Shown here: positions 28,286 to 49,293 of the stretch, in pieces | How positions within the stretch are numbered: position 1 is the first letter of the stretch | Layout: each line of letters opens with the position of its first letter | Assembly (NCBI GenBank): GCA_000961765.1 | Contig: LADT01000026.1 | Coordinates: forward strand, 88,541-152,540 | Direction of reading: 5' to 3' | Length of the DNA stretch: 64,000 nt | Source: Clostridiaceae bacterium BRH_c20a | GTDB taxonomy: Bacteria > Bacillota > Peptococcia > Peptococcales > BICA1-8 | Position numbers and translations under genes: made by a program | The notes under the pieces: model-generated | Databases searched by the model: none | Told to the model about the DNA's origin: nothing | What the model saw: only the letters and a program-made list of their open reading frames with translations

Positions 28286-28449
28286 TCGTTTTCGGGGACG
28301 GTTCTTGACTTGCCCAGAAATATTAGTAGATTGGACTTGTTATATTCTCCTTTTATTTTCCTAAGAAATATAAATCATTCGGTCTTCCTTGTACAAATAA
28401 TAAATTCCTTAAGAAAACAATTCATAGTGAAGGGGTTTTTATATAGGGT

Positions 28450-34888: not shown

Positions 34889-35293
34889 GATAAATTACCT
34901 TCCAAAAGTATTAATTTTTATTAAACCGTTCTTTCCCTATTACCTTTCTTGGCCTCCGTAACAATTATAAAAATAGCAAAAGGGCTATAGTATCAAATTT
35001 CTACATTATTCTATATTATCCTACACAATTAGAAAATAATTTTGTGGGATATTATTACATAAAGAAAAGGAAAAACGAATTAAATTATTTTTATGAATTT
35101 TGATATTTAGAATAGAGATAAAGAATGAGACAAATTTAGAATATTATGAAATAATATGCAAATATATGTGGAAAAATGTTTAAAACATGGTATATTATAT
35201 TTATATTTTATGTATATTTCATTTTAATAAATGCAAAAAACTTGATAGAATTTGTAAGCTGAATTTATGTCAAAACAAATAAAGGTGGGAAAT

Positions 35294-38200
35294 ATGGAAC
35301 TACCAGAAATTATCAAGTTAGATAAAAGCAAATGCCAACACTGTTTAGCTTGTTTACTTGTATGTCCGGTAAAACTATGTAATGTTGTGGAACCTGATGG
35401 AATCTCGGTAAATCCGGAACTTTGTATTGGCTGTGGCGAATGCATTCGAGCCTGCAGAGAAAAGGGCCATAATGCCCGGTCAGGGATTGATGATTTTCCC
35501 GATTTTTTGCAAGATATTCAATCGGGTGTCCCGATAGGAGTGCTTGTTGCCCCCGCTGCGGCAGTGAATTACAACGGATTGTTTCCAAAGATGATTACTG
35601 CTTTAAGAAATGCGGGAGTTAAGTATGTGTTTGATGTTAGTTTTGGAGCGGAAATTGCTACCTACCAATATTTAAAACTGGTTCAATCCGGAGCTCAAAA
35701 ACCTATAATTGCTCAGCCTTGTCCTGCTGTTGTCAGCTTTATAGAAATTTATCATTCAGATTTAATCCCTTACCTTGCTCCTACACATTCACCTCTTTTG
35801 GCTGCTGCCAAATGGGTTAAAAGTCAATCAATGTACAAGGATCTTAAGCTTGCTTTTCTAGGTCCGTGCTTTGCAAAGCGTAGGGAAGTACACGATCCGA
35901 ATACTGGGGGAATGGTATCATATAATATTACTTATCAATCTTTGGATAAATATTTTCAAGAACGGGGCATTTCATTAGAGTCACTAGAACCATCAGGCTT
36001 TGATTCGCCTGAAGCGGAGCGCGCGGTGGTCTTCTCGCAACCGGGAGGATTAACTGAAACCTTTCGCCGTTTTGGTTTCCCGTTTAAAAAGGTTGACATT
36101 CCTAGGATTGAGGGACCCCATGAGATTTATATAAAATACTTGCCTGAACTTAAAAATAACATAAGAGATGGTAAGGTTCCAATTTTGGTTGACATTCTTA
36201 ATTGTCAATACGGATGCAACATCGGCCCAGCTGTTACCCATAATCATACCCATTTTGAAATTGACATGATTATGGATAAACGCAGAGAAGAACAGGTTAA
36301 AAAGCACAATACATCTGATGAAGCAAATCCAAGTTTGTTTGAAGAATACTTTAAATGGATAGATGATGAAAATATTGAATTTTCCAGAGATTATTCAGAT
36401 AAATCATCAAATAGATATTTGCGTGAACCTTCTGAAGAAGATGAGGAACTAACTTGGCAACGTATGCATAAGCTTACCCGGGAAGAACGGGAGATTAATT
36501 GTGCTTCATGTGGCTATGGCAATTGCCGGAGCATGATGACAGCAATAGTAAATCAACTCAATCATATCGAGAGCTGCAAATATTACCTGTTCAAAGAAAA
36601 TGAAATCAATCTGGAAAAGGTGGAGGCTCAGGCAAAAGAGCTCCAAAAATCCAGAGATGAAATAGCTGATTGGAATAGGGTGCTGGAAAAAACAGTGGCC
36701 CAAAGGACTTTGGCCATAACGAATTTATTAAATAATGCCGGCCAGGGTTTCCTAACTTTTGGGGAAAACATGCGGGTTGACAATGAATACAGCTCTGAGT
36801 GTAGAAGGATATTTGCCCAGGATATCGGTGGCCTTATATTTTCCGAATTAATTTTTCCACAGAGCAAACAAGATATAAACTTTCTTAATTCCCTTATTGA
36901 AGAAATTTTTAAACAAGATGATGATGATGTAGTGGCAGAACTTTACCTGCCGTTATTGCCTGAAAAAATCGATATTGGCAACAAGCAAATTGAGATAAAC
37001 TATAAAATTATTAACAATACCAATTTAGAATCCAAAAAATGCATGGTGATTTTAACAGATGTTACTGACAAGCGGCTATTAGAGAATCAAATGAAGAATG
37101 AAAAAAATGCTTTAAAAATGGTCGTGAAGGTCGTAGTAAGTTATAACGAGTTTATTCAAATATTAAAAGACTACCAGAATTTTTGCGACACACTATTGTA
37201 TGAGATTATTAACAGTGAGAAGTCCTTAGAAAATAAAGTTGTGGAAATTTTTAGGTATATCCATACATTTAAAGGAAACTTCAGCCAGTTTTATATGACT
37301 GGTATTACACAATCACTGCATGACTTCGAGAGTGAAATTTCAACCTTTAGTAATCAGCTTGAACTGGGTTGGGGTAAGGATGAATTAATTCGATTTATAG
37401 AGCGATTCAATATAAACTCCTGGTTGGAGGAAGATGTAAATCGGTTAGAAGAGGTTTTAGGTACTGAATTCTTTTCAAGCGAGGATATGCTAACAATTAG
37501 CAAGGTAAAGCTTATAGAATTGGAGAAAAAAGTAAAGTCTATTCTACCGCCTGCTGAATGTAAAATTTTTGTTGCAGAGCTTAGAAATTTGCGGTATAGA
37601 CCTTTTAATTCACTCCTTGAATCTTATCAAGATTATGTAATGGAGTTAGCCCAGCGGTATCATAAACAAATTTATCCTGTTGAATTTAAGGCAGAAAGAA
37701 TTTTGGTTGACCCAGATCGGTTTAACGATTTTGCTAGAAGCTTAGTACATATTTTTCGTAATGCTGTGGATCATGGTATAGAAACAGCGTACCAAAGGAT
37801 AGAGAGCGGAAAAGAAGAATATGGCAGTATTAAATGTAATATTTGCAGAGTGGACAATAAAGTTATTTTAACTATCATAGATGATGGCAGAGGAATTGAT
37901 TGCAATATACTAAGGAGTAAAATAATTGAAAAAGGCTTTTTAAACCGGGAGGAAACAATTGGTATTTCCGAAGATGAAGTTGTTAATTTCATATTTAAAG
38001 ATTCCTTTTCTACAAAGGATGAGATAACGGACTTATCGGGGCGAGGTGTTGGCCTTGGTGCCGTGAAAAATGAATTGCAAAAGCTTGGGGGATCGGTTGC
38101 AGTAAAAAGTTTTCCTGGTCAGGGTACGGAATTTAGGTTTACTATTCCCATAGAAGGCGAACAATTTTGGGGACTAGCTATCTCGGAATTAATTAACCCG

Positions 38201-38659
38201 CTTATTGACACAACTTGTAATTATCTCAATAACCACATAGGCTTAGAAATAAAATCTACCGAATGTTTTGATGTTAGTAAACCGGAAAAGGTGGTACTTT
38301 ATAAGTTTACTGCGTTTATAACAATAAAAGGTACCATAGAGGGGCTATTTCTTATTAGCATGGAAGAACAAGTTCTGAAAATGGTAGTAAGGAACTTCGT
38401 CCTGGGCAACTTGACAGAAGATGAGGAAGCAGAATATATGGAAGACGTTCTGGCAGAATGTACAAACACAATTTTGGGGAACTCTCTCAAACTATTTCCT
38501 GGTCTTACAGAAATGATTGTTATCGATTCTCCTGTCTCCATTTTTTCTAAAAATGCCTTGGTGAAATATCAGGAATCAATGATTTCAACCTGTAATATTC
38601 AAACCCATGTTGGAAAACTCTGTCTTAGTTTGGTAGTTCCACGAAAAATAGAAGAATAA
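35294..38659 (+). CDS. [FeFe]-hydrogenase-like sensory domain fused to PAS, HPt, a CheA-type HATPase and a CheX/CheC-like domain
   Basis: Two CxxCxxCxxxC ferredoxin motifs. H-cluster-type motifs IAQPCPAV, LGPCFAKRRE and ILNCQYGCNIGP. Cx2Cx4Cx16C at nt 36500..36577. HPt IHTFKGN. N-box HIFRNAVDHGIE, with DDGRGID and GRGVGLG. C-terminal LAECTNTILGNS. AAGGTGGG RBS before the ATG at 35294 (the ORF is open from 35267). Confidence 0.8.
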   Translation: MELPEIIKLDKSKCQHCLACLLVCPVKLCNVVEPDGISVNPELCIGCGECIRACREKGHNARSGIDDFPDFLQDIQSGVPIGVLVAPAAAVNYNGLFPKMITALRNAGVKYVFDVSFGAEIATYQYLKLVQSGAQKPIIAQPCPAVVSFIEIYHSDLIPYLAPTHSPLLAAAKWVKSQSMYKDLKLAFLGPCFAKRREVHDPNTGGMVSYNITYQSLDKYFQERGISLESLEPSGFDSPEAERAVVFSQPGGLTETFRRFGFPFKKVDIPRIEGPHEIYIKYLPELKNNIRDGKVPILVDILNCQYGCNIGPAVTHNHTHFEIDMIMDKRREEQVKKHNTSDEANPSLFEEYFKWIDDENIEFSRDYSDKSSNRYLREPSEEDEELTWQRMHKLTREEREINCASCGYGNCRSMMTAIVNQLNHIESCKYYLFKENEINLEKVEAQAKELQKSRDEIADWNRVLEKTVAQRTLAITNLLNNAGQGFLTFGENMRVDNEYSSECRRIFAQDIGGLIFSELIFPQSKQDINFLNSLIEEIFKQDDDDVVAELYLPLLPEKIDIGNKQIEINYKIINNTNLESKKCMVILTDVTDKRLLENQMKNEKNALKMVVKVVVSYNEFIQILKDYQNFCDTLLYEIINSEKSLENKVVEIFRYIHTFKGNFSQFYMTGITQSLHDFESEISTFSNQLELGWGKDELIRFIERFNINSWLEEDVNRLEEVLGTEFFSSEDMLTISKVKLIELEKKVKSILPPAECKIFVAELRNLRYRPFNSLLESYQDYVMELAQRYHKQIYPVEFKAERILVDPDRFNDFARSLVHIFRNAVDHGIETAYQRIESGKEEYGSIKCNICRVDNKVILTIIDDGRGIDCNILRSKIIEKGFLNREETIGISEDEVVNFIFKDSFSTKDEITDLSGRGVGLGAVKNELQKLGGSVAVKSFPGQGTEFRFTIPIEGEQFWGLAISELINPLIDTTCNYLNNHIGLEIKSTECFDVSKPEKVVLYKFTAFITIKGTIEGLFLISMEEQVLKMVVRNFVLGNLTEDEEAEYMEDVLAECTNTILGNSLKLFPGLTEMIVIDSPVSIFSKNALVKYQESMISTCNIQTHVGKLCLSLVVPRKIEE

Positions 38660-38688
38660 TCACTAGTTAGTATTTTTGGAGGTGTAAA

Positions 38689-39441
38689 ATGGCTCGTATT
38701 TTAGTTGTTGATGATTCGGCCGTAATGAGACTTAACATATTGCACACATTAACTCAAGCAGGTCACGAAATAGTAGCCCAAGCTTCGGACGGAAGACAAG
38801 CCTACAATCTATATAAAACACATTCCCCCGATATTGTTACGATGGATATTACAATGCCAAAAGTCAATGGAATTGAAGCTGTCAATGAGATAATAACAAA
38901 GTTTCCTGAGGCAAAAATAATCATGGTTAGTGCATTGGATCAAAAACATATGGTACTAGAGGCTCTTAAATGTGGAGCTAAGCATTATATTATTAAGCCT
39001 ATTAACCCTGAAAAACTTGTGGCTGTAATTAATAAGGTTTTGGGGATTGAACCCCAAACTACAGATACTATCAAAAGTGAAACGGTAAAGGAAATGGAAC
39101 CTATAAAAGCACAAGTTGAAGAAGAACCCGCAAATCCGTTTATCATTAAAAACATAAATTCAGTATTTAATATTGAAATTACAAAATCGTTTTCAATAGA
39201 TAATGCTGGGTCTCTTCTACAGGCCACCCAGGGTCTTCTTTATGTCCAACCCTTAAATGTGGTGATTGACTTTGGAATAATTGAGGTTTTTTCAATAGAC
39301 TTATTAAATAAAATTGCAGAAATAACTAACCTTATCCTGGGTGCAAACGGTAAAGTAACTTTAACTTCGCAAAACAAGAAATTTATCAATTTTGTTAAAG
39401 AAAAGCATATTAGTGGATTATCCAAATTATTTATTGAGTAA
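38689..39441 (+). CDS. Response regulator: CheY-like receiver plus a STAS-like C-terminal domain
   Basis: ILVVDDS...VTMDITMPKVNG...VSAL...KP receiver motifs. The C-terminal ~100 aa resemble an anti-sigma-antagonist/STAS fold (tentative). Confidence 0.8.
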   Translation: MARILVVDDSAVMRLNILHTLTQAGHEIVAQASDGRQAYNLYKTHSPDIVTMDITMPKVNGIEAVNEIITKFPEAKIIMVSALDQKHMVLEALKCGAKHYIIKPINPEKLVAVINKVLGIEPQTTDTIKSETVKEMEPIKAQVEEEPANPFIIKNINSVFNIEITKSFSIDNAGSLLQATQGLLYVQPLNVVIDFGIIEVFSIDLLNKIAEITNLILGANGKVTLTSQNKKFINFVKEKHISGLSKLFIE

Positions 39442-39524: not shown

Positions 39525-40469
39525 ATGTCTGGGGACGGTCCTTTGACACAACATAATGAAAATATGATAGAATAGCTCTAGGGGGTGATCTAATGGCAAG
39601 GACGAGTAGACAAATAAGTCAGACTGGTTTTTACCATGTAATGATGCGGGGGAATGAGAAAAGGGAAATTTTTAAAGATGACAGGGACCGGGAGAAGCTA
39701 TTAGGTATCATTAGGGAAAAGAAAAAAGAAGTAGTTTTTGACCTATATGGATATTGCTTAATGAATAACCATGTTCATTTATTAATTAGGACAGAAAATA
39801 TTGCAGGTGTAATGAAAAGAATTAATACCAGTTATGCTTGCTTTTTTAATAAGAAATATAATCGAGTAGGCCATTTATTTCAGGACAGGTTTAAGAGTGA
39901 GACTATTGATGATGAAAAACATCTTATGGCAGTTGTAAGATATATACATAATAATCCTTATCAGGCGGGTATGGTAAGTGATATCTTAGAATATCCATGG
40001 AGCAGTTATATTGATTATGTAAGTAAAAGGGATAATAAGAATAATGACCTGGTAGATACCTGGGAAATACTCTCTTTATTTTCCCAGGAGAAAAACAAAG
40101 CTATTGAATATTTCAAGGAATTTTCCAACAAGGAGAATGACGATCAATTTATAGATATAAAGGAAGATGATTCTGACGTGTTTAGTTTTCAGGAGACGGA
40201 TAACTCTTTGGTGGTGGAAAAATACTTAAAGGACAATAACCTATCAATTACTGATTTAAAGACTGATTGTAATAGGCATTATCTGCAGGAAGTCATATTA
40301 AACCTACGAAAAAAAACTCAGCTGTCAATTCGAGGAATAGCCAATCTTTTGGGATTTAACAGAGGAATTGTGCAAAGAATGGTATCACAAAAACCTGTTG
40401 CCCCAGAGGATGAGGGGCAAGAAAAATGAGTATTCATGTCAAGCGTGTCAAAGGACCGTCCCTAGACAC
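39525..40469 (+). mobile_element. RAYT/IS200-like (Y1 transposase) unit bounded by 25-bp inverted GGGACGGTCCTTTGACAC ends
   Basis: Left end 39525..39549 is aTGTCTgGGGACGGTCCTTTGACAC. Right end 40445..40469 is GTGTCAAAGGACCGTCCCtAGACAc. There are 2 mismatches. Confidence 0.75.
39593..40429 (+). CDS. REP-associated tyrosine transposase (IS200-like Y1 HUH) with a C-terminal HTH
   Basis: HUH motif NHVHLLI and YIHNNP tyrosine motif. The C-terminal LSIRGIANLLGFNRGIVQRMV is HTH-like. Confidence 0.85.
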   Translation: MARTSRQISQTGFYHVMMRGNEKREIFKDDRDREKLLGIIREKKKEVVFDLYGYCLMNNHVHLLIRTENIAGVMKRINTSYACFFNKKYNRVGHLFQDRFKSETIDDEKHLMAVVRYIHNNPYQAGMVSDILEYPWSSYIDYVSKRDNKNNDLVDTWEILSLFSQEKNKAIEYFKEFSNKENDDQFIDIKEDDSDVFSFQETDNSLVVEKYLKDNNLSITDLKTDCNRHYLQEVILNLRKKTQLSIRGIANLLGFNRGIVQRMVSQKPVAPEDEGQEK

Positions 40470-41372
40470 GCGTTGGTCAACCGCCGGGATACTCTTGTTA
40501 AAGATGGTATTCGGCTGAAAAACGGTTTGCATGAGCAGGTTTCTGTTGCTTACCCAAGCTACCATAGATTTTTTTGTGATATTGACCGGAAGACAGCGCT
40601 GTATTTTTGGAAACACTATCCGTCACCCATCTATCTGCGGAATAAACCCATTGATGAACTATTTGAAGAATTTAAAGCGATTGCGTCCAATACAACGAAA
40701 AGTAAGATTGAATTGATATTTGAATGTGTCCATAATGATGGTGATACGATACGGGAATATCAGGAATCAAGGGATTTTATCACCAAAAGCCTTGCACGTT
40801 GTCTTGAACAGCAAAAGGAAGAAATAGCCCTGGTCGATTGTGAAATCGAAAGGATGCTGAGCTATTTTGACTATAAACTAACAACAATACCGGGCGTAAA
40901 TATTGCCACAGCAAGCAAGCTGATTGCCGAAATCGGTGACATACGCCGCTTTCCAAGTGCTGATAAACTGGCTCGTTATGCAGGAATTGCACCAATAAAG
41001 TTTAGTTCCGGCGGCAAAGGCAAGGAGGAAAGCTCAAAACAAGGTAACCGTGAGTTGCACGGATTATTCTATTTTCTGGCGGTATCCATGGTCACGGTTC
41101 CAAAGACAGGAAAGCCGAATCAGCCTATATTTTACGCCTATTATCAGCGTAAAATCAGCGAAGGCAAAACGAAATCACAGGCGTTGGTCTGTATTATGCG
41201 CCGATTAGTAAACATTGTTTACGGCATGATGAAGAACAAGACGGAGTATCGTCCCTTTGTAGTTGAGGATCATGTTGTAGAAGAACAGTAATGATTGTTT
41301 TAGCACAGCGTTGAAATTATACCATAATTTTTGAAATTAAATACGGATTCCCAACCTTAATCTGAGATATAG
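40470..41372 (+). pseudogene. IS110-family recombinase, 3' two-thirds only (copy A), plus its short right end
   Basis: Starts abruptly after the RAYT right end. Has ...IPGVNIATASKLIAEIGDIRRFPSADKLARYAGIAPIKFSSGGKG...GNRELH (Tnp_20-type Ser domain) with the stop at 41291. ORF 40368..41291 is a chimera with the RAYT 3' end. Confidence 0.8.
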
Positions 41373-41711
41373 ATTCTTCCACCTGAGGGCGCGGGTGAGG
41401 CTAGTAACGCTTTCAAATATGACTTGCTTAAGAAAGACCTTAAGTACACTGAAAAGTATGGCTTGGAGGCAAGAAAAGAGTTACCTGACGGAAGAATCCG
41501 CTATTATGGAGAAATTCAACCAGCATCAAAACCAGGGGAAATGGTTGGTAGAAGGATTGTACAGGAGCTTAATCCTGCCAATGGAAATGTGAGAGCATGG
41601 AACGAAACTCTAGATGGTGCGGGTAGAATAAGGCAGGTTAGACCGCAACTAGGTCCTAATAAAACGCATTATACATTTGACCAATTCGGAAATTATACAG
41701 GGAAGTGGTGA
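41373..41711 (+). CDS. Orphan polymorphic-toxin C-terminal domain (family not recognised)
   Basis: The frame is open from 41373 directly after the IS110 right end. There is no credible own start (the ORF track uses TTG at 41424). Followed 4 nt later by a small acidic ORF, matching toxin/immunity geometry. Confidence 0.45.
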   Translation: MLPPEGAGEASNAFKYDLLKKDLKYTEKYGLEARKELPDGRIRYYGEIQPASKPGEMVGRRIVQELNPANGNVRAWNETLDGAGRIRQVRPQLGPNKTHYTFDQFGNYTGKW

Positions 41712-41715
41712 TAAC

Positions 41716-41994
41716 ATGCAGAGCCCCACAATTGAAGAGCTCATTATGAAGCTACAGCAGGTATTAGAAGGGGGACTTAGTCGAGAAGAGGTTTCAGATT
41801 GGGCTATGAAAGCCTCGGAAGTATATGAACGTGAGAGTTCGCTGAGTCAGCATGAGATTTCCCTTTGGAAATGTCTTGACGTTGTTGGTGGTATTGACTT
41901 AAAAGACTCACCATCGGAGTACCTTCACAATGAGCAAGATATTAAAGGGTGGATAACCAAGTTTAAGCAAATGAAGGATTCAAACCAATCCTAA
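41716..41994 (+). CDS. Putative cognate immunity protein
   Basis: ATG at 41716, 4 nt after the toxin stop and preceded by GGAAGTGGTG. 92-aa acidic helical protein. Confidence 0.5.
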   Translation: MQSPTIEELIMKLQQVLEGGLSREEVSDWAMKASEVYERESSLSQHEISLWKCLDVVGGIDLKDSPSEYLHNEQDIKGWITKFKQMKDSNQS

Positions 41995-42036
41995 GTAATC
42001 ATGCTGAAGGGAGTAAATAGGGGTCAGCAACGCCCC

Positions 42037-42569
42037 CTATATGTTCCTTGACAAATGCGGATCCTGCAGTTTATAAACTCCAGTTACGACTCCATCGGCG
42101 AAATCTCGACCCTGAGAGAAACCGTTCCCCGACCCGCATTGCGGGGCGGTGTGAGCCGGAGCGGGGGTGCTTTGCAACCCCGCTCCTTTAACCTGCATCA
42201 TTTTCGACCCCATGGTTCACCCTGTGATTGAGGGGATGAAGCCACATTTTGGGGCTGCATTTTGAAGGGAAAGGTTTTTTCGCAGAAGTCGCCAAATCCG
42301 GTTTCATTTTTTCCGAAGGGACAAACACCTTATGGAGGCAGCTAAAACGCAACACAGGGGCACACGGTGGCTCACGGCGTTAAGTATTTGAACGCCGGAT
42401 AACGAGTATATTTATGACTGCTGGTAGCGAACGTATAAATCGGCTTGTACCCCATGGTTCATGGTGGACCATAGATTTACAGGAAATTCTGTTCTATGAT
42501 AAAATTTGTGCCAGAGGGGGTTTAAGGGGGTAAGAAATTATCCCGGAAAAATCCCTCATTTTCTTTTTC
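42037..42569 (+). ncRNA. Candidate large structured RNA in the 5' leader of IS110 copy B
   Basis: ORF-free and GC-rich, with hairpins at 42129..42149, 42158..42186, 42220..42234 and 42375..42397 that covary with copy C. A GC stem plus T-run lies at 42514..42569. The ends are not defined. Confidence 0.45.
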
Positions 42570-42787
42570 TGCATATGACAGTTTTGATACAAACGCAGAA
42601 ATGACTTGCAATACTTTTCAGACAGAGTTAACATCACACAACAATAGTGAAAATAACCTGTTTGAAACTGTAAGTCTTGCGGTAGATAGGCTGTCGCGCC
42701 CTTGCGGGTCTGAAAAGACTAACGCTATCATCTGAGGTTGCCGGTACTTGGGCTTTATGTGGATAGCAGGACAAAAGAAGGGATGAT

Positions 42788-43051
42788 ATGCAGAGAAGAG
42801 AAAATTACCTCTATGTCGGTATGGACTTGCATAAGGACACCCATACCGCTGTTCTGGTAAATTGTTGGAATGAGAAATTAGACGTGATTGTTATTGAAAA
42901 CAAGCCCAGCGAGTTTAATAAGCTGGCAAAACGAGTAAACAGGATGGCTGTAAAGCTGGGACTATCCCCAATTTACGGTTTGGAAAACGCCTACGGCTAC
43001 GGCAGAAGCCTTGCTGTCTGGCTGATTGAAAAAGGGTACATAGAAAAGTAA
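42788..43051 (+). pseudogene. IS110-family recombinase, N-terminal DEDD domain only (copy B)
   Basis: YVGMDLHKDTHTAV...GLENAYGYGRSLAVWL. The reading frame ends where a 120-bp repeat begins (43048). Confidence 0.8.
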
Positions 43052-43167
43052 ATCTTGGGGTCAGGCTCACTATTAAACATAACATTAAAATTGAAGTACT
43101 AAAAAGCACCTATAAAACCTATGACGGTTATCTAAAGAGATAGCCGTCTTTTTTTAGAAGAAGCAAT
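43048..43167 (+). repeat. 120-bp direct repeat, copy 1 (identical to 45658..45777)
   Basis: Base-for-base identical by inspection. Contains the terminator-like hairpin GACGGTTATCT-aaag-AGATAGCCGTC followed by T7. Confidence 0.95.
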
Positions 43168-43490
43168 GTGTCTAGGGACGGTCCTTTGACACAGCGAAAT
43201 AGAAATATGATTGAATACTCTGGGAAGCTATTAGATATCAGAAGGGAAAAGAAAAAGGAAGAAGTTTTTGACATATATGCATATTGCTTAATAGATTAAC
43301 CATGTTCATTTATTAATAAAGGATTATAAGAAGAATAACATGGTAGATACCTTGTTAAAGAAAGATTGTAATAGGTATTATCTGCAGGAAGGCATAGTAA
43401 ATCTAAGAATAAAAACTCGACTGTCAATTCGAGAAATAGCTGATTATTTGGAATTGAACAGAGGGGTTGTGCAAAGAGTGGTGTCACAAC
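43168..43490 (+). pseudogene. Degraded second copy of the RAYT unit (left end retained, internal deletions, no right end)
   Basis: GTGTCTAGGGACGGTCCTTTGACAC at 43168..43192. Collinear remnants (…HVHLLI…, …DCNRYYLQE…LSIREIADYL…) have lost the start codon and central region. Confidence 0.75.
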
Positions 43491-43674
43491 TATCTTCCTC
43501 AATCAAAACAGGGCTTCCGGGTAAGCAGAAACTTACCCCCGGAGGAAATGGCAAAGGGCAAGAAAAATCTAACGCTAAAGGCGGCGGCAAACCTGCCAAA
43601 ATCTTTGCCATTGACCCGATAGCAAGTGTATTTGACAAAGATAGACCGGTGATGATATTCACTAAAGGTGATAA

Positions 43675-44475
43675 AGGCGGCGGAAACTCCAATGGTGGAG
43701 GGAATTCCGGTGGAAATTAAAGCTTCCACTATTAGAAGAAACAATTGAACTGCCGGCTTATCTTACGGAACCCACCCGGTACGTAAGCTACACCTATGAT
43801 GAATCAGGCAACCGTACTGGTAGGACTACCGATCAGGGAGAAGTCAGCTATACCTATGATAATGGCAACCGCCTCATCAAAGCAGGTGAAACAGCATACT
43901 ATTATGATGATAACGGCAATCTGGAATTCAAAGAAACAGCAGACGGAGGAACAGAATACCGATATGATGCCGCCAATCGACTGACAGCAGTATACTTTGC
44001 CGATGGAACAGATTTAAAATACCATATAGGAGAAGATAAGGTGCTAGCCCGGAAGATGTTTGGCTATCACGGACAAAAAGAACAAGGCAAACCGACCCTG
44101 CAGACCAGAGGCGGGTTGATGTACTACTCCTTTGATGCTTTGGGCAATGTAACAGATCTCACAGACAGGACAGGGGAGATAACAGCCCAGTAGTTCCGGT
44201 TTGACGCATTTGGGGGCATGTATGCCGGAACCTTGGGCCCCTATAATCATATGGGCTTGACCGGCAAGGATTATGATGCCGAGAGCGGTTTCATAGACTT
44301 CGGTTTCCGCTGGTATGATCCCCAGGCAGGCAGGTTCACTCAGCCCGACACCTATAAAGGGAACATTTTTAATCCCCTGACCCAGCATCCCTATGCCTAT
44401 GTAGGCAATAACCCAGTGTTATGTTTTTTAGGAGGTAAGAACAAAAACATGGTGAACAGCAACAAATCGGTATAG
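43675..44475 (+). pseudogene. Rhs/YD-repeat core fragment with an in-frame TAG (44191) and a truncated 3' end
   Basis: YTYDESGNRTG...YTYDNGNRL...YYYDDNGNL...RYDAANRL...DALGNVTDLTD...YDAESGFIDFGFRWYDPQAGRF...YVGNNPV, all in one frame. Confidence 0.75.
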
Positions 44476-44555
44476 AAAGGCCACGTCCAATAAAATCCGG
44501 GAACGTGGCCTTTTTAATGTCTATAAAGATTGGTCGGTTTGTTTAGGCTGTAAAA

Positions 44556-44954
44556 CTATCTCTCAACTTCTTCATCTTCTTCATCTGCCAAAATATTGAC
44601 TTCCTCGACTTCGCGATATAAAATTTCATCAATTTGATTTAAAAGCTCAGGTAAACTTTTTGTAATCGTTCCCCAAAGCACCGCAAAATCAATGTTTTCA
44701 TAGTCATGAACAATTTTATTTCTCATGCCTTTGATACTTTTCCAAGGAATATAAGAATATTCTTCCTGAGTGCTTAAACCTATATCCTTTGCCAGTTCAC
44801 CGATTTGGGAAATGGTAAAAGCACAAGCAGAAATTGTTTTTTTATCATTCATAAACTGTTCAAAGGAAAGTCCATATGTATACTGAGCTACATCGTTGAT
44901 GTATCCGCTTATTTTTTGCAGGATAATCCTATCCTTACCTATCATATAAGACAA
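44556..44954 (-). CDS. hepT: HEPN-domain (DUF86/HepT-like) toxin
   Basis: Rx4H motif GMRNKIVHDY. Overlaps the upstream MNT gene by 20 nt. Confidence 0.85.
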   Translation of the reverse strand: MSYMIGKDRIILQKISGYINDVAQYTYGLSFEQFMNDKKTISACAFTISQIGELAKDIGLSTQEEYSYIPWKSIKGMRNKIVHDYENIDFAVLWGTITKSLPELLNQIDEILYREVEEVNILADEEDEEVER

Positions 44955-45243
44955 TACCCTCCCGTTCTACTGCGGAGCAAATGGTCGCATTCCTGCTCAA
45001 TTCGGATATTTCAAACAAATCTACACGTTTGTTAAGTTGTGTTGTAATATCCTCTAGCACACCATAGAAAGCCATATTTAAAAGCTCACCCTTGCTGTCA
45101 ATAACAATATCAATATCGCTTTGATCTGTTGCGTTACCTTTTGCATAAGACCCAAACAATATGGCGCGATATACAGGGGCGGCCTCAAAAACGGGACGGA
45201 GCTTTGATCTTATTTCATTGATTTGATATATTTTTTGCTCCAT
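44935..45243 (-). CDS. mntA: MNT-type nucleotidyltransferase antitoxin (MntA-like)
   Basis: GSYAKGNATDQSDIDIV (GSx10DxD) motif. The start at 45243 follows GGTGAG; the ORF is open to 45261. Confidence 0.85.
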   Translation of the reverse strand: MEQKIYQINEIRSKLRPVFEAAPVYRAILFGSYAKGNATDQSDIDIVIDSKGELLNMAFYGVLEDITTQLNKRVDLFEISELSRNATICSAVEREGIVLYDR

Positions 45244-45262
45244 ATTCTCACCACTTTGCATT

Positions 45263-45292
45263 ATTCTATATATATAATATCATATATAGAAT
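45263..45292. promoter_or_regulatory. 11-bp-arm palindrome upstream of the MNT/HEPN operon (candidate operator)
   Basis: ATTCTATATAT-N8-ATATATAGAAT. Confidence 0.45.
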
Positions 45293-45657
45293 AATTATTC
45301 ATCGAAAAAAATCGCAACTTCTTCGAATAACTTGCTTTCTTGCAGTGCTTTTACAATTAATTGTCTTGCAATTGATATTTTATCATCTTTTATTATACCA
45401 TTTGCAAAAAGAAAAATACAAAGGGGAGCGCAGGGACGCCGTCAATGTCATCAACTTTAAATGTAAATTATTTACAGACATAGCTTTCTATTTAATGCAT
45501 TCTTTGTTCTTACTAGGAATTTCCTTCTTGGAAATTGCCGCTGCTTTCTTATTGGAATGCAACATTTAGCTACTTGCTCCATTATGTCTTTAAAAAACAG
45601 TGGGGACGGTACTTTTTGTTTGAGAGTTTAATGAAATACTAGTAATGTCGAGTACGC

Positions 45658-45777
45658 GTAAATCTTGGGGTCAGGCTCACTATTAAACATAACATTAAAA
45701 TTGAAGTACTAAAAAGCACCTATAAAACCTATGACGGTTATCTAAAGAGATAGCCGTCTTTTTTTAGAAGAAGCAAT
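45658..45777 (+). repeat. 120-bp direct repeat, copy 2
   Basis: Identical to 43048..43167. Confidence 0.95.
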
Positions 45778-45778
45778 A

Positions 45779-47320
45779 GGGAGGGATGAACTGTATGATA
45801 AAGCCGGAAGAATGGCCAACGTCATAGCCGATGGGCAGACAACTACCTATACCTATTATGACAACGGCAGCAAACATCAGGTTATTTATCCAATTGGGGC
45901 AACCGAAGAATACACCTATTATGATAACGGCATGCTCCAGACCTTGGTCAACAAAAAAGCTGACCAGGCAATAATTGATGCATATACCTATACGTATGAT
46001 GAATCCCATAACCTGACTGCCAAAGAAGATGCCAGGGGGGTTACCACTTATACCTATGACGACCTAAACCGCCTGGAGACGGTGACCGAACCCAGCAGTA
46101 AAATTACCTCATATACCTATGACGGTGCAGGAAACAGGCTGACACAGGTAGAAGACTACCAGGAGAACAGCATTGTCACCAACTACACATATAATGAGCA
46201 GAACCGGCTTCTAAGACAGGTTAGCCAGTTGAATGGAGAAATCATTCAGAACGAAGTTAGCGAATATACCTATGATGAACTGAACCGGATGATAACTGCC
46301 CTAACCCCCAACGGGACCAATATCACCAACAGCTACAACGGCGATGGTCAGCGGGTAAGCAAACAGGTCAACAGCGACATGACCCAATATGTCTATATAG
46401 GCGACAAAGTAGTCTTGGAATTGGACAGTTCTGGGAACCAAGCTGCCCGCAACGTCCTGGGAACCGGCATGATCTCCCGGACAGTAGACGGCACCACCCT
46501 TTACTACATGTACAACGGACACGGAGATGTAACAGCCCTGATAGATTCCACAGGGGTCATCCAGGCCACATACTATTACGATGCCTTTGGCAACATCCTG
46601 GAATCCACTGGGGAAGCAAACAATCCCTATACATATGCAGGTTACCAGTATGACAAAGAGACAGAATATTACTACCTAAATGCCCGATATTATGATGCAC
46701 TGACAGCCCGCTTTATTACCGAAGATACCTATAGGGGAGACCCCAGAGATCCGTTGACCTTGAATCTCTATACCTATGGCATAAACAACCCAATTAGATA
46801 TATCGATCCAACGGGTCACTATATAGACGAAAGCAAATTAGGTAAAATAGCAAGTGATCCATATTATTCAAGTGTAAAACTAACCTATTCACCAGGAAAA
46901 GGCGATAAACTGACAATAACCACAGCAGATGGATTTACCTTTTCCGTGACAGATAACCGTCGTGGTATATATATAGACCCGACAAATATAGTACATGATA
47001 TTTCAGGTCATGGTAATGTAAAGAGCAGCAGTGATATTAAATCAACGGCTACCAGTACAGTTCAGCCTAGTGCAGCTAGCCCATATGTTCCACCGGTTAC
47101 TAATACTACGAAGTCTAATCCAAGTACAACTATTAAACCCATTACTGTTACACCAAAAGTAGTCGCACCAATAGCAGATACCCGTACAGCTAATGAGATA
47201 AGCAAATCTGTGACAACGGATAACCTTAATAAGTATGGTGCGGTGGGATATGTCCAGGAGATGGGTAATGGTGACCCAACCATGTGGTCTGTTGCGCAGA
47301 ACTTTGGTGGTGGTCTATAA
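45779..47320 (+). CDS. Rhs/YD-repeat protein, C-terminal core plus Ser/Thr/Pro-rich linker (5'-truncated; ends at an in-frame TAA)
   Basis: YD repeats begin right after the 120-bp repeat (…DELYDKAGRMANV…). The core-end motif is NNPIRYIDPTGH. The stop at 47318..47320 is in the same frame as the downstream toxin ORF. Confidence 0.8.
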   Translation, partial: GRDELYDKAGRMANVIADGQTTTYTYYDNGSKHQVIYPIGATEEYTYYDNGMLQTLVNKKADQAIIDAYTYTYDESHNLTAKEDARGVTTYTYDDLNRLETVTEPSSKITSYTYDGAGNRLTQVEDYQENSIVTNYTYNEQNRLLRQVSQLNGEIIQNEVSEYTYDELNRMITALTPNGTNITNSYNGDGQRVSKQVNSDMTQYVYIGDKVVLELDSSGNQAARNVLGTGMISRTVDGTTLYYMYNGHGDVTALIDSTGVIQATYYYDAFGNILESTGEANNPYTYAGYQYDKETEYYYLNARYYDALTARFITEDTYRGDPRDPLTLNLYTYGINNPIRYIDPTGHYIDESKLGKIASDPYYSSVKLTYSPGKGDKLTITTADGFTFSVTDNRRGIYIDPTNIVHDISGHGNVKSSSDIKSTATSTVQPSAASPYVPPVTNTTKSNPSTTIKPITVTPKVVAPIADTRTANEISKSVTTDNLNKYGAVGYVQEMGNGDPTMWSVAQNFGGGL

Positions 47321-47407
47321 AAGAGTGGAAAGGATGCTGTAACTGGAATTGTAAACATAGTCACCACAAATCCAGTAGAGACAGCTAAGAACATCAGTAA
47401 CGCAATT

Positions 47408-47938
47408 TTGAATTATAAAGATACCGGAAAGGCAATTTGGTATGAAGTTTCTAATGCTTTTTATGAGGATGTAATCAATGGAGATGCGGATTCAACAGCA
47501 TTTTTTACAGGGAGAGCAGTTGGTGAAATCGTTCTCGTTGTTGTAGGAACAAAGGGTGTCGAGAAAGCAGTAAAAGTTGTTAAAGGTGCTAATGCCGTTA
47601 AGGTGAGTAATGTTACCCAGGGCGCGGGTAAAGGTTTTGATAAATTTAATGCTCTTAAAAAGAACCTCGGGCCTGCCGGGGAAGGAAAAGCGTGGCATCA
47701 TGTTGTCGAACAGAGTCAAATCCAGAAATCAGGGTTTAGCCCGCAACAAATTCATAATACCAATAATGTAGTTGCTGTTGACTCAGCGACTCATGCGAAG
47801 ATAAGCGGGTATTATAACAGTATTGATGCAAGTTTATCAGACACTATGAGAGTTCGGGATTGGCTTGCAGGACAAGGTTTTGAAACGCAATATCAATTTG
47901 GAATGGATGTCTTAAAGAGATTCGGGGTGACGAAATGA
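47408..47938 (+). CDS. Toxin module: pre-toxin (TG-like) region plus an HNH/EndoVII-fold nuclease of AHH/WHH type
   Basis: The frame is open from 47321, same frame as the Rhs core. KAWHHVVEQ...NNVVAVDSATHAKISGYY fits the AHH/WHH nuclease pattern. Confidence 0.6.
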   Translation: MNYKDTGKAIWYEVSNAFYEDVINGDADSTAFFTGRAVGEIVLVVVGTKGVEKAVKVVKGANAVKVSNVTQGAGKGFDKFNALKKNLGPAGEGKAWHHVVEQSQIQKSGFSPQQIHNTNNVVAVDSATHAKISGYYNSIDASLSDTMRVRDWLAGQGFETQYQFGMDVLKRFGVTK

Positions 47939-48303
47939 AGAAAAATATATCACCACAATCATTAATTGAGCAATATATTAATGCTGGAATAATAATGACA
48001 GAAGCGTTGCCAAACGGTGATTATAAGACAAATAATCGAGAAGCAAAAAAGCTAAAAAAAATAAAAACTGACTTTTTAGAAAATAATTTGGATTTAGCGA
48101 AGCAAGTTTTCGCTGAAGTCATGAAGTCAGAAAATGACAAAGCACGCTCCATAGCGGCAGCGGATGCTCTAAGGCTAAACATACTGATTGAACAAGCTAT
48201 TGATGTTTTGGAAGATGTTGCTAAACGTGCAGATATTATCGGATTCGGAGCGGAAACATCGCTGAAGATTTGGCGTGGAGAGTATCCGGGAAAGACACTT
48301 TAA
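47935..48303 (+). CDS. Immunity protein (DUF2019-like helical repeat)
   Basis: ATGA start/stop overlap with the toxin. A 122-aa helical protein resembling DUF2019-type immunity proteins. Confidence 0.6.
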   Translation: MKKNISPQSLIEQYINAGIIMTEALPNGDYKTNNREAKKLKKIKTDFLENNLDLAKQVFAEVMKSENDKARSIAAADALRLNILIEQAIDVLEDVAKRADIIGFGAETSLKIWRGEYPGKTL

Positions 48304-48384
48304 TGAGAGGTGTACCTTTGCAGACACCCTATAACTTACGATATAACGCTGTATTTTAATAATAACAGCCACCTGCAAGGTGAA

Positions 48385-48900
48385 CCTTGACAAATTAACA
48401 GCCACCCTTTGACAAACGAAGGTTGCTTGTTGAAAGCCATAAGCGGTCGGCATTGCCGGCCGCTGTGAACCGGCAGGTGCGCCCAAAGGTGCACCCGCCT
48501 TTAACCTGCATCATTTTCGACCCCATGGTTCACCCTGTAAACAGGGATGATTAAGGGCAATTTGCTACCGAATAATTCATGCGATGATTTCCGGCACAAA
48601 GCCGTCAAATTCGGCCTCTTTTCCGATGGATGGGCAAACACCTTATGATGGCTATAAAAATTGAACACAGCGGCACACGGTGGCTCACGGCATTAAACAT
48701 TTGTGTGCCGGATAACGAGGGCATATATGAAATGCACAGCTTTTGCAGACTGCCAGTAATGAACATATAAATCGGCTTGTACCCCATGGCTCATGGTGAA
48801 CCATGGATTTACAGGAAATCTGTTCTATGGTAAAATTTGTGCCAGAGGGGGGTTTAAGGGGGTAAGAAATTATCCCGGAAAAATCCCTCGTTTTCTTTTT
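48385..48900 (+). ncRNA. Second, diverged copy of the structured leader (IS110 copy C)
   Basis: Hairpins at 48443..48463, 48472..48499, 48533..48546 and 48688..48710. Conserved blocks at 48500..48538 and 48672..48691. Stem plus T-run at 48845..48900. Confidence 0.4.
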
Positions 48901-49038
48901 CTGCATATGACAGTTTTGATACAAGCGCAGAAATAACTTGCAATACTTTTCAGACAGAGTTAACATCACACAACAATAGTGAAAATAACCTGTTTGAAAC
49001 TGTGAGTCTTGTGGTAGATAGGCTAGAGAAGGGATGAT

Positions 49039-49094
49039 ATGCAGAGAAGAGAAAACTACCTCTATGTCGGTATGGACTTGCATAAAGACACCCA
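49039..49094 (+). pseudogene. IS110-family recombinase stub (first ~18 codons, copy C)
   Basis: MQRRENYLYVGMDLHKDT, then homology stops. A hairpin carrying GGGGACGGTTCT follows at 49097..49125. Confidence 0.75.
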
Positions 49095-49293
49095 AAGGAA
49101 GCGAGGGGACGGTTCTGCCGCTTCCGCGCTTCTTTATTTTTGATAAAAATCTTGCAATATATTTGATAACGTAATTTCAGACTAACCATACCACTTTCTT
49201 TATGTATATAGATTAAAGGTCAATATTTTTATTCTTTTTAAGTTACTTCTCACATATATCTTTTACTGCAAAGAAAATTGAGGAGGGATAAGT

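What the first reader, a model, noticed from the sequence alone, without database searches (positions are those of the whole stretch)
39525..49125. A ~9.6-kb GC-richer accessory mosaic in which all three IS110 copies are broken next to GGGGACGGT-type sequences
SEEN: between the response-regulator gene (ends 39441) and the P-loop ATPase gene (starts 49294) lies a patchwork of elements. It contains a RAYT unit, an IS110 3' fragment, an orphan toxin/immunity pair, IS110 leader plus N-terminus, a RAYT remnant, an Rhs fragment, HEPN/MNT, the Rhs C-terminus with its toxin and immunity gene, and a second IS110 leader plus stub.

The three IS110 pieces cannot be one disrupted copy, because the C-terminal part (40470-41291) lies upstream of the N-terminal part (42788-43051). 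Each break is adjacent to the same sequence family:
- Copy A starts exactly at the RAYT right end (40445-40469).
- Copy B ends 120 bp before the RAYT-remnant left end (43168-43192).
- Copy C ends 3 nt before a hairpin carrying GGGGACGGTTCT (49097-49125).

The island is also bounded by this motif on both sides (39531 and 49105).

INFERENCE: the HUH/Y1 transposase system, which acts on single-stranded hairpins, or recombination between its REP-like sites, has repeatedly truncated the IS110 elements. This could be a case of one mobile-element family disrupting another.
Basis: partly seen in the sequence, partly recalled or inferred. Interest (0 to 1): 0.6.

Follow-up and report, generated by a model that had tools for sequence, protein, structure and literature searches.

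The report
Decayed toxin-cassette array of IS110 elements
The island is the wreck of an array in which an RNA-guided IS110-type element appears to carry toxin-tip and immunity gene cassettes into a large Rhs toxin gene. A second small mobile element (RAYT) later broke it up, and the link between RAYT ends and IS110 breaks is real but looks like ordinary decay.

Summary

Two of the three IS110 breaks lie 8-12 nt from a GGGACGGT site. The third abuts an unexplained 119-bp exact repeat, not the palindrome. An unrelated metagenome locus (L093) shows a fourth, independent IS110 break fused to the same palindrome end.

The pieces are not a random mosaic. In 86 instances from about 70 loci of many Firmicutes, this IS110 subfamily ends in an in-frame PPEG[A/S/T]G. 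A hypervariable toxin tip follows, then an immunity gene, a hairpin, a ~770-nt leader and the next IS110.

Each leader carries an 8-mer that co-varies as the reverse complement of that end. The same site, and identical cassettes, occur in full-length toxins, with homology breaking exactly at the site.

I read the island as a dead, probably bridge-RNA-guided array of IS110-borne toxin cassettes at an Rhs locus. A multicopy RAYT/IS200-like element invaded it.

Active, repeated truncation of IS110 by the RAYT system is not shown. Nested insertion followed by deletion explains the data at least as well.

The parts
39525..39549 (+). Left 25-nt imperfect palindrome (REP-like) of the RAYT unit; contains GGGGACGGT at 39531
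   Evidence: (I2)
39593..40429 (+). RAYT / IS200-like Y1 (HUH) transposase gene, 278 aa, apparently intact
   Evidence: Pfam Y1_Tnp 66.8 bits. NCBIfam REP_Tyr_transpos 76.9 bits, just under the cut-off of 80.
40445..40469 (-). Right palindrome of the RAYT unit. Its outer end is fused to IS110 piece A.
   Evidence: (I1, I2)
40470..41291 (+). IS110 piece A: transposase aa ~141-410 (C-terminal Transposase_20 part)
41292..41395 (+). 3' end of IS110-A. It ends in GAGGGCGCGGG (41385-41395), which encodes an in-frame PPEGAG.
41396..41711 (+). Cassette a: orphan toxin tip, read in frame from PPEGAG (110 aa including the motif)
   Evidence: No Pfam hit; assigned by position.
41677..41994 (+). Cassette a: putative immunity gene
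   Evidence: No family hit; assigned by position.
42017..42787 (+). Leader B. It holds a hairpin (42019-42038), a TTGACA promoter-like box (42046-42056), a 41-nt invariant block (42185-42225), and a bridge-RNA-like loop with guide CGCGCCCT (42695-42702).
42788..43048 (+). IS110 piece B: transposase aa 1-87 (DEDD domain start)
43049..43167 (.). 119-bp sequence of unknown origin, ending in a terminator-like hairpin. It is an exact copy of 45659-45777.
   Evidence: D3. No match in any other locus.
43168..43489 (+). RAYT remnant: left palindrome (43168-43192) plus internally deleted gene pieces. The right end is missing and the remnant is fused to Rhs sequence.
   Evidence: (D2, D8, D12, D13, D19)
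43490..44475 (+). Rhs fragment 1. It is 88-95% identical to an internal part of the intact 2036-aa Rhs of strain L002. It reaches the core end (PYAYVGNNPV) and is then truncated.
44556..45261 (-). HepT/MntA (HEPN/MNT) toxin-antitoxin pair
   Evidence: Precomputed Pfam PF01934 and PF01909. NCBIfam hits below cut-off.
45602..45610 (+). Solo GGGGACGGT. Its context GGGGACGGTACTTT matches the right half of the palindrome at 13 of 14 positions.
45659..45777 (.). Second copy of the 119-bp repeat, joined on its right to Rhs fragment 2
   Evidence: D3
45778..47938 (+). Rhs fragment 2. It has YD repeats, the RHS core end, an in-frame stop at 47318-47320, a linker and toxin tip c. It contains the attachment-type site CAGGGCGCGGG at 47618-47628 (protein QGAGK).
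47935..48303 (+). Cassette c: putative immunity gene
   Evidence: assigned by position
48361..49038 (+). Leader C. It is 74-100% identical to leader B in blocks and lacks the 83 nt that carry the guide loop.
49039..49094 (+). IS110 piece C: the first 18-19 codons only. The same junction is present in strain L002.
   Evidence: (D7)
49097..49125 (+). Hairpin carrying GAGGGGACGGTTCT (49103-49116) at the right edge of the island. It is ambiguous between palindrome-like and IS110-site-like, and is probably native.

Best explanation
The island is a dead array of IS110-borne toxin cassettes at an Rhs locus.

**The repeating unit.** Each unit runs in this order:
- toxin C-terminal tip
- immunity gene
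- hairpin
- promoter and a ~770-nt leader encoding a bridge-RNA-like guide
- IS110 recombinase
- a ~105-nt end that finishes with GAGGGnnCGGG (read PPEG[A/S/T]G)

**Inferred mechanism.** The recombinase, guided by its leader RNA, recombines this end with the same 11-nt site that encodes xEGxG just before the toxin tip of a full-length polymorphic toxin. A new tip is thereby fused in frame, and the old tip and its immunity gene are pushed downstream as an orphan. Repetition builds arrays.

**State in the window.** Three successive units survive only as fragments A, B and C, and no full-length Rhs remains.

**The breaks.** A multicopy IS200-like RAYT element bounded by 25-nt palindromes landed in this junk at least twice. 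Break A (and the break in L093) is the outer junction of such a unit after deletion or recombination removed the other side. Breaks B and C are separate deletions. The motif at C is a resident chromosomal sequence.

**Shown versus inferred.**
- Shown: the architecture, the guide/site co-variation, and the exact homology breakpoints.
- Inferred: that the IS110 enzyme performs the exchange, the direction of cargo, and the order of the decay events.
For: **Architecture**
- 86 distinct IS110 ends are followed in frame by hypervariable 80-190-aa ORFs. Some are Toxin-deaminase, Tox-GHH, AHH or HNH domains.
- Tandem arrays with 0.6-3 kb between units occur in many genera.
- The left limit of conservation is a hairpin plus a TTGACAAAT box directly after the immunity gene. 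The right limit is ...GAGGGnGCGGG.

**Site in full-length toxins**
- First-in-array toxins carry xEG[AST]G 100-170 aa from their C-terminus.

**Exact breakpoints**
- Two toxins of one genome (L062, L071) share 624 nt at 97.8% identity up to the site and nothing after it.
- Cassettes that follow the site in full-length toxins (L065, L069, L071, L086, L022) recur at 92-98% identity in other genomes. There they start within 1-5 nt of an IS110 end.

**RNA guide**
- The 8-mer CGnnCCCT lies 70-90 nt upstream of the recombinase start. It is the reverse complement of the element's own end AGGGnnCG, and the variable dinucleotide co-varies in 29 of 41 cases.
- It also matches the non-IS site upstream of its own cassette in about 20 loci.
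- It sits on the 5' side of an internal loop in a fold with 14 compensatory pairs.
- NCBIfam names the protein family 'IS110 family RNA-guided transposase'.

**In the window**
- The guide at 42695 matches both 41385-41395 and 47618-47628.

**Decay**
- Junction sequences are and the strain L002 comparison.
- RAYT remnants are common in related contigs.
- L093 mixes RAYT, IS1182-like and IS110 fragments.
Against: - No intact unit exists in the window, so the model rests on other genomes.
- I found no guide matching the variable start of the cargo, which is the expected right-donor half. Donor recognition would have to work from a half-site.
- 12 of 41 guide/end pairs differ by one base.
- Rfam has no model that matches the leader.
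- Window cassettes a and c have no recognised toxin or immunity domain.
- For the decay part: the missing halves of the IS110 copies are nowhere in the data, the origin of the 119-bp repeat is unknown, and the C motif cannot be assigned.
- Two independent IS110 breaks about 50 nt apart (A and L093), both fused to the same palindrome end, are more coincidence than a purely neutral model predicts.
Confidence: 0.55

Rival explanations
1. The RAYT Y1/HUH transposase, or recombination between its palindromes, actively and repeatedly cuts IS110 elements. One transposon family thereby inactivates another. Each break would be an enzyme-made junction at the foot of a hairpin.
For: - Break A is exactly at the palindrome end.
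- L093 shows an independent IS110 break fused to the same end in the same geometry.
- N-terminal stubs are followed by the + orientation motif and C-terminal pieces are preceded by the - orientation motif. That is the geometry expected for junctions with the outer ends of a palindrome-bounded unit.
- Adjacency is unlikely by chance.
- The RAYT gene looks intact.
Against: - Break B is against a 119-bp unrelated repeat.
- Junction C predates or is independent of RAYT (L002), and its motif is probably native.
- The four break positions differ (after codons 18-19 and 87, and before codons ~141 and ~158), with no shared sequence at the lost side.
- Other island breakpoints lack the motif.
- Only one of the metagenome stretches carrying the palindrome has an IS110 next to it.
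Confidence: 0.25
2. The IS110 recombinase itself made some of the junctions. It would have acted on GGGGACGG-containing sequences as half-matching pseudo-sites, because one natural variant of its attachment site is GAGGGGACGGG.
For: - The attachment-site variant GAGGGGACGGG is common in other genomes.
- It matches the C-site at 11 of 12 positions and 45602 at 9 of 11.
- Half-match recombination and partial excision by IS110 elements are reported (bioRxiv 10.64898/2026.08.14.744561).
- In L093 the palindrome is split right after GGGGACGG.
Against: - The only guide present in the window (CGCGCCCT) matches GGGCGCG, not GGGGACG.
- Palindromes at A and B are intact, not split at the putative core.
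- The breaks are inside the recombinase gene, not at element ends.
- The C-site lacks the conserved TTCCACCT that precedes true ends.
Confidence: 0.1
3. The adjacency is coincidence or an assembly artefact at repeats.
For: - The motif definition is post hoc and short (8-9 nt).
- L012 shows that assemblers can jump between RAYT copies.
Against: - The same 11-kb arrangement is found at 99.99-100% identity in contigs from several samples and two assembly pipelines.
- The simulation gives P = 0.0008.
- L093 is an independent case.
Confidence: 0.05

Closest known systems
IS110-family bridge-RNA elements (IS621 type; Durrant et al. 2024, PMC11208160)
   Same: - The recombinase has the same two-domain build (PF01548 + PF02371; NCBIfam 'RNA-guided transposase').
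- A non-coding RNA is encoded upstream of the gene.
- An internal-loop guide is complementary to the element end.
- There are no inverted repeats, and the attachment site is specific.
   Different: - The leader is ~770 nt, against roughly 180 nt for described bridge RNAs (own knowledge).
- Only one guide was identified.
- The attachment site is a coding motif inside toxin genes, and the same left half-site bounds both ends of the unit.
- The unit carries cargo upstream of the RNA gene.
Cargo-carrying and tandemly expanded IS110 loci (Hu et al. 2026 preprint, 10.64898/2026.08.14.744561)
   Same: - Tandem IS110 modules.
- Cargo.
- Boundaries that match only one donor half-site.
   Different: - That work reports plasmid-derived and resistance cargo. 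The words toxin and Rhs do not occur in it.
- Here the cargo is a defined toxin-tip/immunity cassette, fused in frame at a fixed site.
Rhs / polymorphic-toxin orphan arrays and C-terminal displacement (PMC3150448, PMC3967940; Zhang et al. 2012, PMC3482391)
   Same: - A full-length toxin is followed by orphan tip/immunity modules.
- Tips are exchanged at a conserved boundary.
   Different: - In the classical cases, exchange is ascribed to homologous recombination through retained core sequence.
- Here each orphan is preceded by an IS110 and only an 11-nt shared site.
- PMC3482391 does not mention such recombinases.
RAYT/REP systems (Nunvar et al. 2010, PMC2817692; Bertels et al. 2017, PMC5581495)
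   Same: A Y1 transposase gene is flanked by inverted imperfect palindromes.
   Different: - RAYTs are typically single-copy with more than 100 REPs per genome (abstracts).
- Here there are at least 2 gene copies or remnants in 10 kb and many remnants in related contigs. Only 3 full palindromes occur in 64 kb, all attached to the gene.
- It behaves like a decaying IS200-type insertion sequence.
IS110-family elements that insert into REP sequences (ISPpu9, PMC8450116; ISPpu10, 10.64898/2026.03.19.712850)
   Same: IS110-family elements and REP-type palindromes are physically associated.
   Different: - There, intact IS copies sit inside REPs, which are their targets.
- Here, palindrome ends abut internal breaks of the IS110 gene, and the IS110 target is a toxin-gene site.

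Membership tests
IS110 family (RNA-guided recombinase elements) | Recombinase with an N-terminal DEDD/RuvC-like domain and a C-terminal Tnp domain | tested here: met
   - Piece A: PF02371, 75 bits.
- Piece B: PF01548, E 2e-4, below cut-off because it is truncated.
- Both are 94-98% identical to intact P0001, which has both domains and scores 204.9 bits on NF033542 (cut-off 140).
IS110 family (RNA-guided recombinase elements) | Upstream non-coding RNA with loop guides complementary to donor and target DNA | tested here: inconclusive
   - One guide (CGnnCCCT) co-varies with the element end and matches toxin-gene sites.
- The structure is supported by 14 compensatory pairs.
- No second (right-half) guide was found.
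- There is no Rfam match.
IS110 family (RNA-guided recombinase elements) | Circular double-stranded intermediate and site-specific insertion | not testable with these tools
   Only indirect evidence: homology breakpoints fall exactly at the site.
RAYT/REP (domesticated REP-associated tyrosine transposase) | Y1 HUH transposase fold with HUH and catalytic Tyr | tested here: met
   - Pfam Y1_Tnp 66.8 bits (cut-off 23).
- HVH and RYIHNNP motifs are present.
- NCBIfam REP_Tyr_transpos scores 76.9 against a cut-off of 80.
RAYT/REP (domesticated REP-associated tyrosine transposase) | Gene flanked by inverted REP palindromes | tested here: met
   Arms at 39526-39549 and 40445-40468 are 96% complementary. 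The hairpin z-score reaches -3.8.
RAYT/REP (domesticated REP-associated tyrosine transposase) | Single gene copy with a large dispersed REP/REPIN population | tested here: not met
   - There are two gene copies or remnants in the island and a further copy in L012.
- Many remnants occur in contigs of sample Ga0209643.
- Only 3 full palindromes occur in 64 kb, all attached to the gene.
- The whole genome was not available.
IS200/IS605-type insertion sequence | Multicopy Y1 element with structured ends, subject to decay | tested here: met
   Copies at 80-94% identity and internally deleted remnants.
IS200/IS605-type insertion sequence | Insertion 3' of a fixed tetra- or pentanucleotide next to the left end | tested here: inconclusive
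   Left flanks of about 15 copies are G-rich but show no fixed motif.
Rhs polymorphic toxin locus with orphan modules | YD-repeat shell and RHS-associated core ending in DPxG | tested here: met
   - RHS_repeat 64 bits.
- TIGR03696 67.6 bits.
- The sequence ...NPIRYIDPTGH is present.
- An intact 2036-aa gene exists in strain L002.
Rhs polymorphic toxin locus with orphan modules | C-terminal toxin domain with a cognate immunity gene | tested here: inconclusive
   - Window tips and immunity ORFs have no family hits.
- Cassettes at the equivalent position in other loci carry deaminase, GHH, AHH and HNH toxin domains.
HepT/MntA type VII toxin-antitoxin | HEPN RNase plus MNT nucleotidyltransferase pair | tested here: met
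   - Precomputed Pfam PF01934 and PF01909/PF18765.
- NCBIfam hits of 38.6 and 47.9 bits are below the cut-off of 60.

The most novel reading that the evidence does not exclude
A widespread Firmicute subfamily of IS110 bridge-RNA recombinases is a dedicated vehicle for polymorphic-toxin tip/immunity cassettes.
- Guided by its leader RNA, it recombines at the 11-nt GAGGGnnCGGG (xEGxG) site of Rhs, PT-TG and other toxins.
- This fuses a new toxin tip in frame and displaces the old one.
- The result is RNA-guided, integron-like C-terminal displacement, which would explain how orphan arrays arise.

Secondarily, the palindrome ends of a multicopy RAYT element may be real hot spots at which these elements get inactivated.
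Probability: 0.55. Interest if true: 0.85.

Novelty: new variant of a known kind. Interest (0 to 1): 0.68.

Why it matters
**The cassette system.** How polymorphic toxins swap their killing domains, and how orphan toxin/immunity arrays form, has mostly been ascribed to homologous recombination. Here the exchange point is an 11-nt site that matches a co-varying guide in the leader RNA of an adjacent IS110 recombinase.
- That makes a site-specific, RNA-guided exchange mechanism directly testable in cultivable hosts such as Lacrimispora xylanisolvens and Tepidibacillus marianensis.
- It would also be a natural case of a bridge-type recombinase making in-frame gene fusions, with a much longer RNA than those described.

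RAYT ends at IS110 breaks matter less. They may show a hot spot, but at present they look like nested-transposon decay in dispensable DNA.

Tried and rejected
- **Rfam.** Searches at gathering and permissive thresholds found nothing for the leaders. The only hit was a sub-threshold porB match inside the toxin gene, taken as chance.
- **One IS110 copy split by one RAYT insertion.** Rejected: 53 codons are missing between pieces B and A, and a 119-bp filler intervenes.
- **Empty site.** I looked for the response-regulator gene directly followed by the P-loop gene and did not find it.
  - The closest island-free relatives have other genes upstream of the P-loop gene.
  - Strain L002 has an intact Rhs and a different left flank.
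- **Guide for the variable cargo start.** Neither mutual information nor longest-common-substring tests gave a signal above shuffled pairings.
- **Origin of the 119-bp repeat.** No match in any of the other fetched loci.
- **Apparent RAYT sequence variants in L009, L011 and L013.** These are runs of N.
- **Classical IS boundaries (hairpin to end) inserted between an immunity gene and the next tip.** Rejected: it needs pre-existing headless tips, and it does not explain the in-frame PPEGxG or the identical site in full-length toxins.
- **IS110 acting on the palindromes.** Considered a minor rival only, because the window's guide does not match them.

Full report
**Source and reality of the arrangement**

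The window comes from a low-GC Firmicute found in Mont Terri rock-porewater metagenomes. Exact copies of the flanking response-regulator and P-loop proteins occur on dozens of contigs. The 11-kb stretch from 38.0 to 49.4 kb is found at 99.99-100% identity in contigs from several samples and two assembly pipelines. The mosaic is therefore not an assembly artefact.

One strain (L002) differs. It has an intact DUF6531 + 2036-aa Rhs gene, a 111-aa immunity gene and a hybrid leader. From 48756 onward, including IS110 stub C and its junction, it carries the same sequence as the window.

**Checking the observation**

- The RAYT gene has a Y1_Tnp domain and sits between two 25-nt imperfect palindromes. 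A third palindrome starts a remnant at 43168.
- Against intact 410-418-aa homologues (94% identity), the pieces cover these parts. Piece A is aa ~141-410 plus a ~105-nt 3' end. Piece B is a 770-nt leader plus aa 1-87. Piece C is a leader plus 56 nt of the gene.
- A and B do not abut, because 53 codons are missing. B and C overlap.

The break sequences show the following.
- A starts directly at the palindrome end.
- B is joined to a 119-bp sequence that recurs exactly at 45659-45777, upstream of the second Rhs fragment (D3). The palindrome lies beyond it.
- C stops 3 nt before a hairpin whose loop holds GAGGGGACGGTTCT.

GGGGACGGT is strongly over-represented (4 against 0.06 expected). Five of the six GGGACGGT sites are in the island. 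Island GC is 0.411 against 0.359 for the rest. A simulation gives P = 0.0008 for two of three breaks lying within 12 nt of a site. This figure is post hoc.

**An independent case**

I scanned public metagenomes for the palindrome core and obtained 87 stretches. Some lie next to RAYT genes of 37-94% identity or their remnants.

One of them, L093, carries a 94%-identical but frameshifted RAYT unit, then an IS1182-like fragment. A half-palindrome CCGTCCCCAGACAT follows, fused directly to a different IS110 fragment of 72% nt identity. On comparison with piece A, that fragment starts about 17 codons downstream of A's break, near codon 158.

The association between palindrome outer ends and IS110 breaks therefore recurs. 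The geometry is consistent throughout: N-terminal stubs are followed by the + orientation, and C-terminal pieces are preceded by the - orientation. This is what the two outer junctions of a palindrome-bounded unit look like.

The ~770-nt 'leader' is conserved upstream of this IS110 subfamily in Tepidibacillus, Lacrimispora, Paenibacillaceae, Clostridium and others. A 41-nt block is nearly invariant across genera.
- Conservation begins at a hairpin (ATAGGGGTCAnnAATGACCCCTAT) and a TTGACAAAT box directly after a small upstream gene.
- It ends at ...TTCCACCTGAGGGnnCGGG.
- That end reads PPEG[A/S/T]G in frame with a hypervariable ORF in 86 distinct instances.
- Several of those ORFs are Toxin-deaminase, Tox-GHH, AHH or HNH toxin domains.
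- Units recur in tandem with 0.6-3 kb between them.

The first toxin of each array is full length (Rhs or other). It carries xEG[AST]G, encoded by the same GAGGGnnCGGG, 100-170 aa from its C-terminus.

Homology breakpoints fall exactly there.
- Two toxins of one genome share 624 nt at 97.8% identity up to the site and nothing beyond it.
- Five cassettes that follow the site in full-length toxins recur at 92-98% identity in other genomes. There they start within 1-5 nt of an IS110 end.

**An RNA guide**

Each leader has the 8-mer CGnnCCCT 70-90 nt upstream of the recombinase start.
- It is the reverse complement of the element's own end AGGGnnCG. The variable dinucleotide co-varies, with 29 of 41 exact matches and the rest one base off.
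- The same guide matches the non-IS site in the toxin gene upstream of its cassette in about 20 loci.
- In an alignment of 22 diverse leaders, the guide lies on the 5' side of an internal loop. An outer stem and an inner hairpin close the loop, and 14 base pairs show compensatory changes.

This is the layout of a bridge-RNA binding loop (own knowledge of Durrant et al. 2024). NCBIfam calls the protein family 'IS110 family RNA-guided transposase'.

In the window, guide 42695-42702 matches both the end of piece A (41385-41395) and the QGAGK site of Rhs fragment 2 (47618-47628). Leader C and L002 have lost the 83 nt that carry the loop.

**Proposed mechanism**

The mobile unit is tip-immunity-hairpin-leader-recombinase-end. 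The same left half-site bounds it on both sides.

Recombination between the unit's end and the site in a toxin gene would insert a new tip in frame and push the old tip downstream behind PPEGxG. The reverse reaction would excise a unit and switch the toxin to the next tip.

The architecture, the co-variation and the exact breakpoints are shown. That the IS110 enzyme catalyses the exchange, and that the cargo lies upstream rather than downstream of the recombinase, is inferred.

The alternative is classical boundaries, running from the hairpin to the end. That model requires headless tips to exist beforehand, and it leaves the in-frame motif unexplained.

I found no guide for the variable cargo start. 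Donor recognition would therefore rest on a half-site. A 2026 preprint reports such half-site use for expanded IS110 loci.

**Reading the island**

From left to right the island contains:
1. the RAYT unit;
2. unit A, with its front deleted;
3. cassette a with leader B and recombinase B, with its back deleted;
4. the 119-bp repeat;
5. the RAYT remnant, fused at 43490 to an internal part of an Rhs gene;
6. HepT/MntA;
7. the 119-bp repeat again;
8. an N-terminally truncated Rhs with an in-frame stop, its site, tip c and its immunity gene;
9. leader C and an 18-codon stub.

No functional toxin or recombinase remains.

**How the breaks arose**

The RAYT element here is multicopy and decaying. That differs from the typical single-copy RAYT with hundreds of REPs (abstracts).

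The simplest account of break A and of L093 has two steps. First, such units landed in dispensable IS110 DNA. Second, deletion or recombination between RAYT copies removed one side.

This account does not explain why two independent breaks lie only ~50 nt apart in the gene.

Break B is not a palindrome junction.

Break C is shared with L002, which has no RAYT in the 10 kb read. An island-free relative with a 95%-identical P-loop protein carries GGGATGGTTCTTGACTTGC 172 nt upstream of the gene. The window motif sits 188 nt upstream, and the same 19-mer type occurs at 28295. The C motif is therefore probably resident DNA.

The C motif also matches the GAGGGGACGGG variant of the IS110 site at 11 of 12 positions. 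A role for the IS110 enzyme at pseudo-sites cannot be excluded, but the window's own guide does not fit it.

**Comparison with known systems and novelty**

These parts are known:
- IS110 bridge RNAs;
- cargo-bearing tandem IS110 loci;
- Rhs orphan arrays;
- RAYT/REP systems;
- IS110 relatives that insert into REPs.

I found no paper linking them as described here.
- No text in the library holds both 'bridge RNA' and 'polymorphic toxin'.
- The cargo preprint does not mention toxins.
- A 2025 preprint only notes that IS110 transposases are among the mobile elements found near PT-TG toxins.
- The 2012 survey of polymorphic toxins does not mention such recombinases.

I rate the system a new variant of known kinds.

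Noticed in passing
window 43048-43167 and 45658-45777: A 120-bp repeat that is 100% identical between its two copies and ends in a terminator-like hairpin. One copy is joined to IS110 break B and a RAYT palindrome. The other lies between the MntA upstream region and Rhs fragment 2. It matches nothing in the other fetched loci, and its origin and role in the rearrangement are unexplained.
   Followed up: partly
window 42185-42225 and 48498-48538; many loci (e.g. L037 3279-3319): A 41-nt block (CCTTTAACCTGCATCATTTTCGACCCCATGGTTCACCCTGT) in the distal leader. It is identical in both window leaders and 97-100% conserved across genera. It contains CGACCCC, which is complementary to GGGGTCG/A in the unit's hairpin and in one attachment-site variant. 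It may be a second functional RNA element.
   Followed up: partly
window 28295-28313; L179 9829-9847: The sequence GGGA[C/T]GGTTCTTGACTTGC occurs after a terminator at 28.3 kb in the window. It also occurs 172 nt upstream of the orthologous P-loop gene in an island-free relative. It looks like a dispersed half-palindrome or a promoter-associated motif.
   Followed up: partly
L012 14640-15008: In one sample, the contig continues from the RAYT remnant into another RAYT copy. That copy keeps its own C-terminus and a right palindrome GTGTCAAAGGACGGTCCCTTGACAC. It is either a strain variant or an assembly jump between RAYT copies. It implies a further RAYT copy in the population.
   Followed up: partly
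loci L092-L178 (metagenome scan): The 18-mer GGGACGGTCCTTTGACAC is exactly conserved in 87 stretches from very different environments. Some lie next to RAYT genes only 37-45% identical to the window's, and many have no RAYT nearby. The DNA motif is unusually conserved relative to the protein.
   Followed up: no
L017 3228-5651: In the Thermincola MAG that holds the closest intact IS110 (P0001), an IS21-type element (IstB plus transposase) is inserted in the middle of the leader. This is another example of nested transposons in these arrays.
   Followed up: no
window 47318-47320: An in-frame TAA splits Rhs fragment 2 from its linker and toxin tip. The frame continues for another 206 codons, so the gene is a pseudogene unless the stop is read through.
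   Followed up: no
window 35267-39441: Upstream of the island lies a 1130-aa sensor kinase. It has Fe-S and [FeFe]-hydrogenase-like large-subunit domains plus HATPase and CheX domains. A 250-aa response regulator follows it. This is an unusual hydrogenase-like sensory pair.
   Followed up: no
window 47749-47809: A sub-threshold Rfam match to porB sRNA (31.8 bits against a cut-off of 35.1) lies inside the toxin-tip coding sequence. It is probably chance.
   Followed up: no
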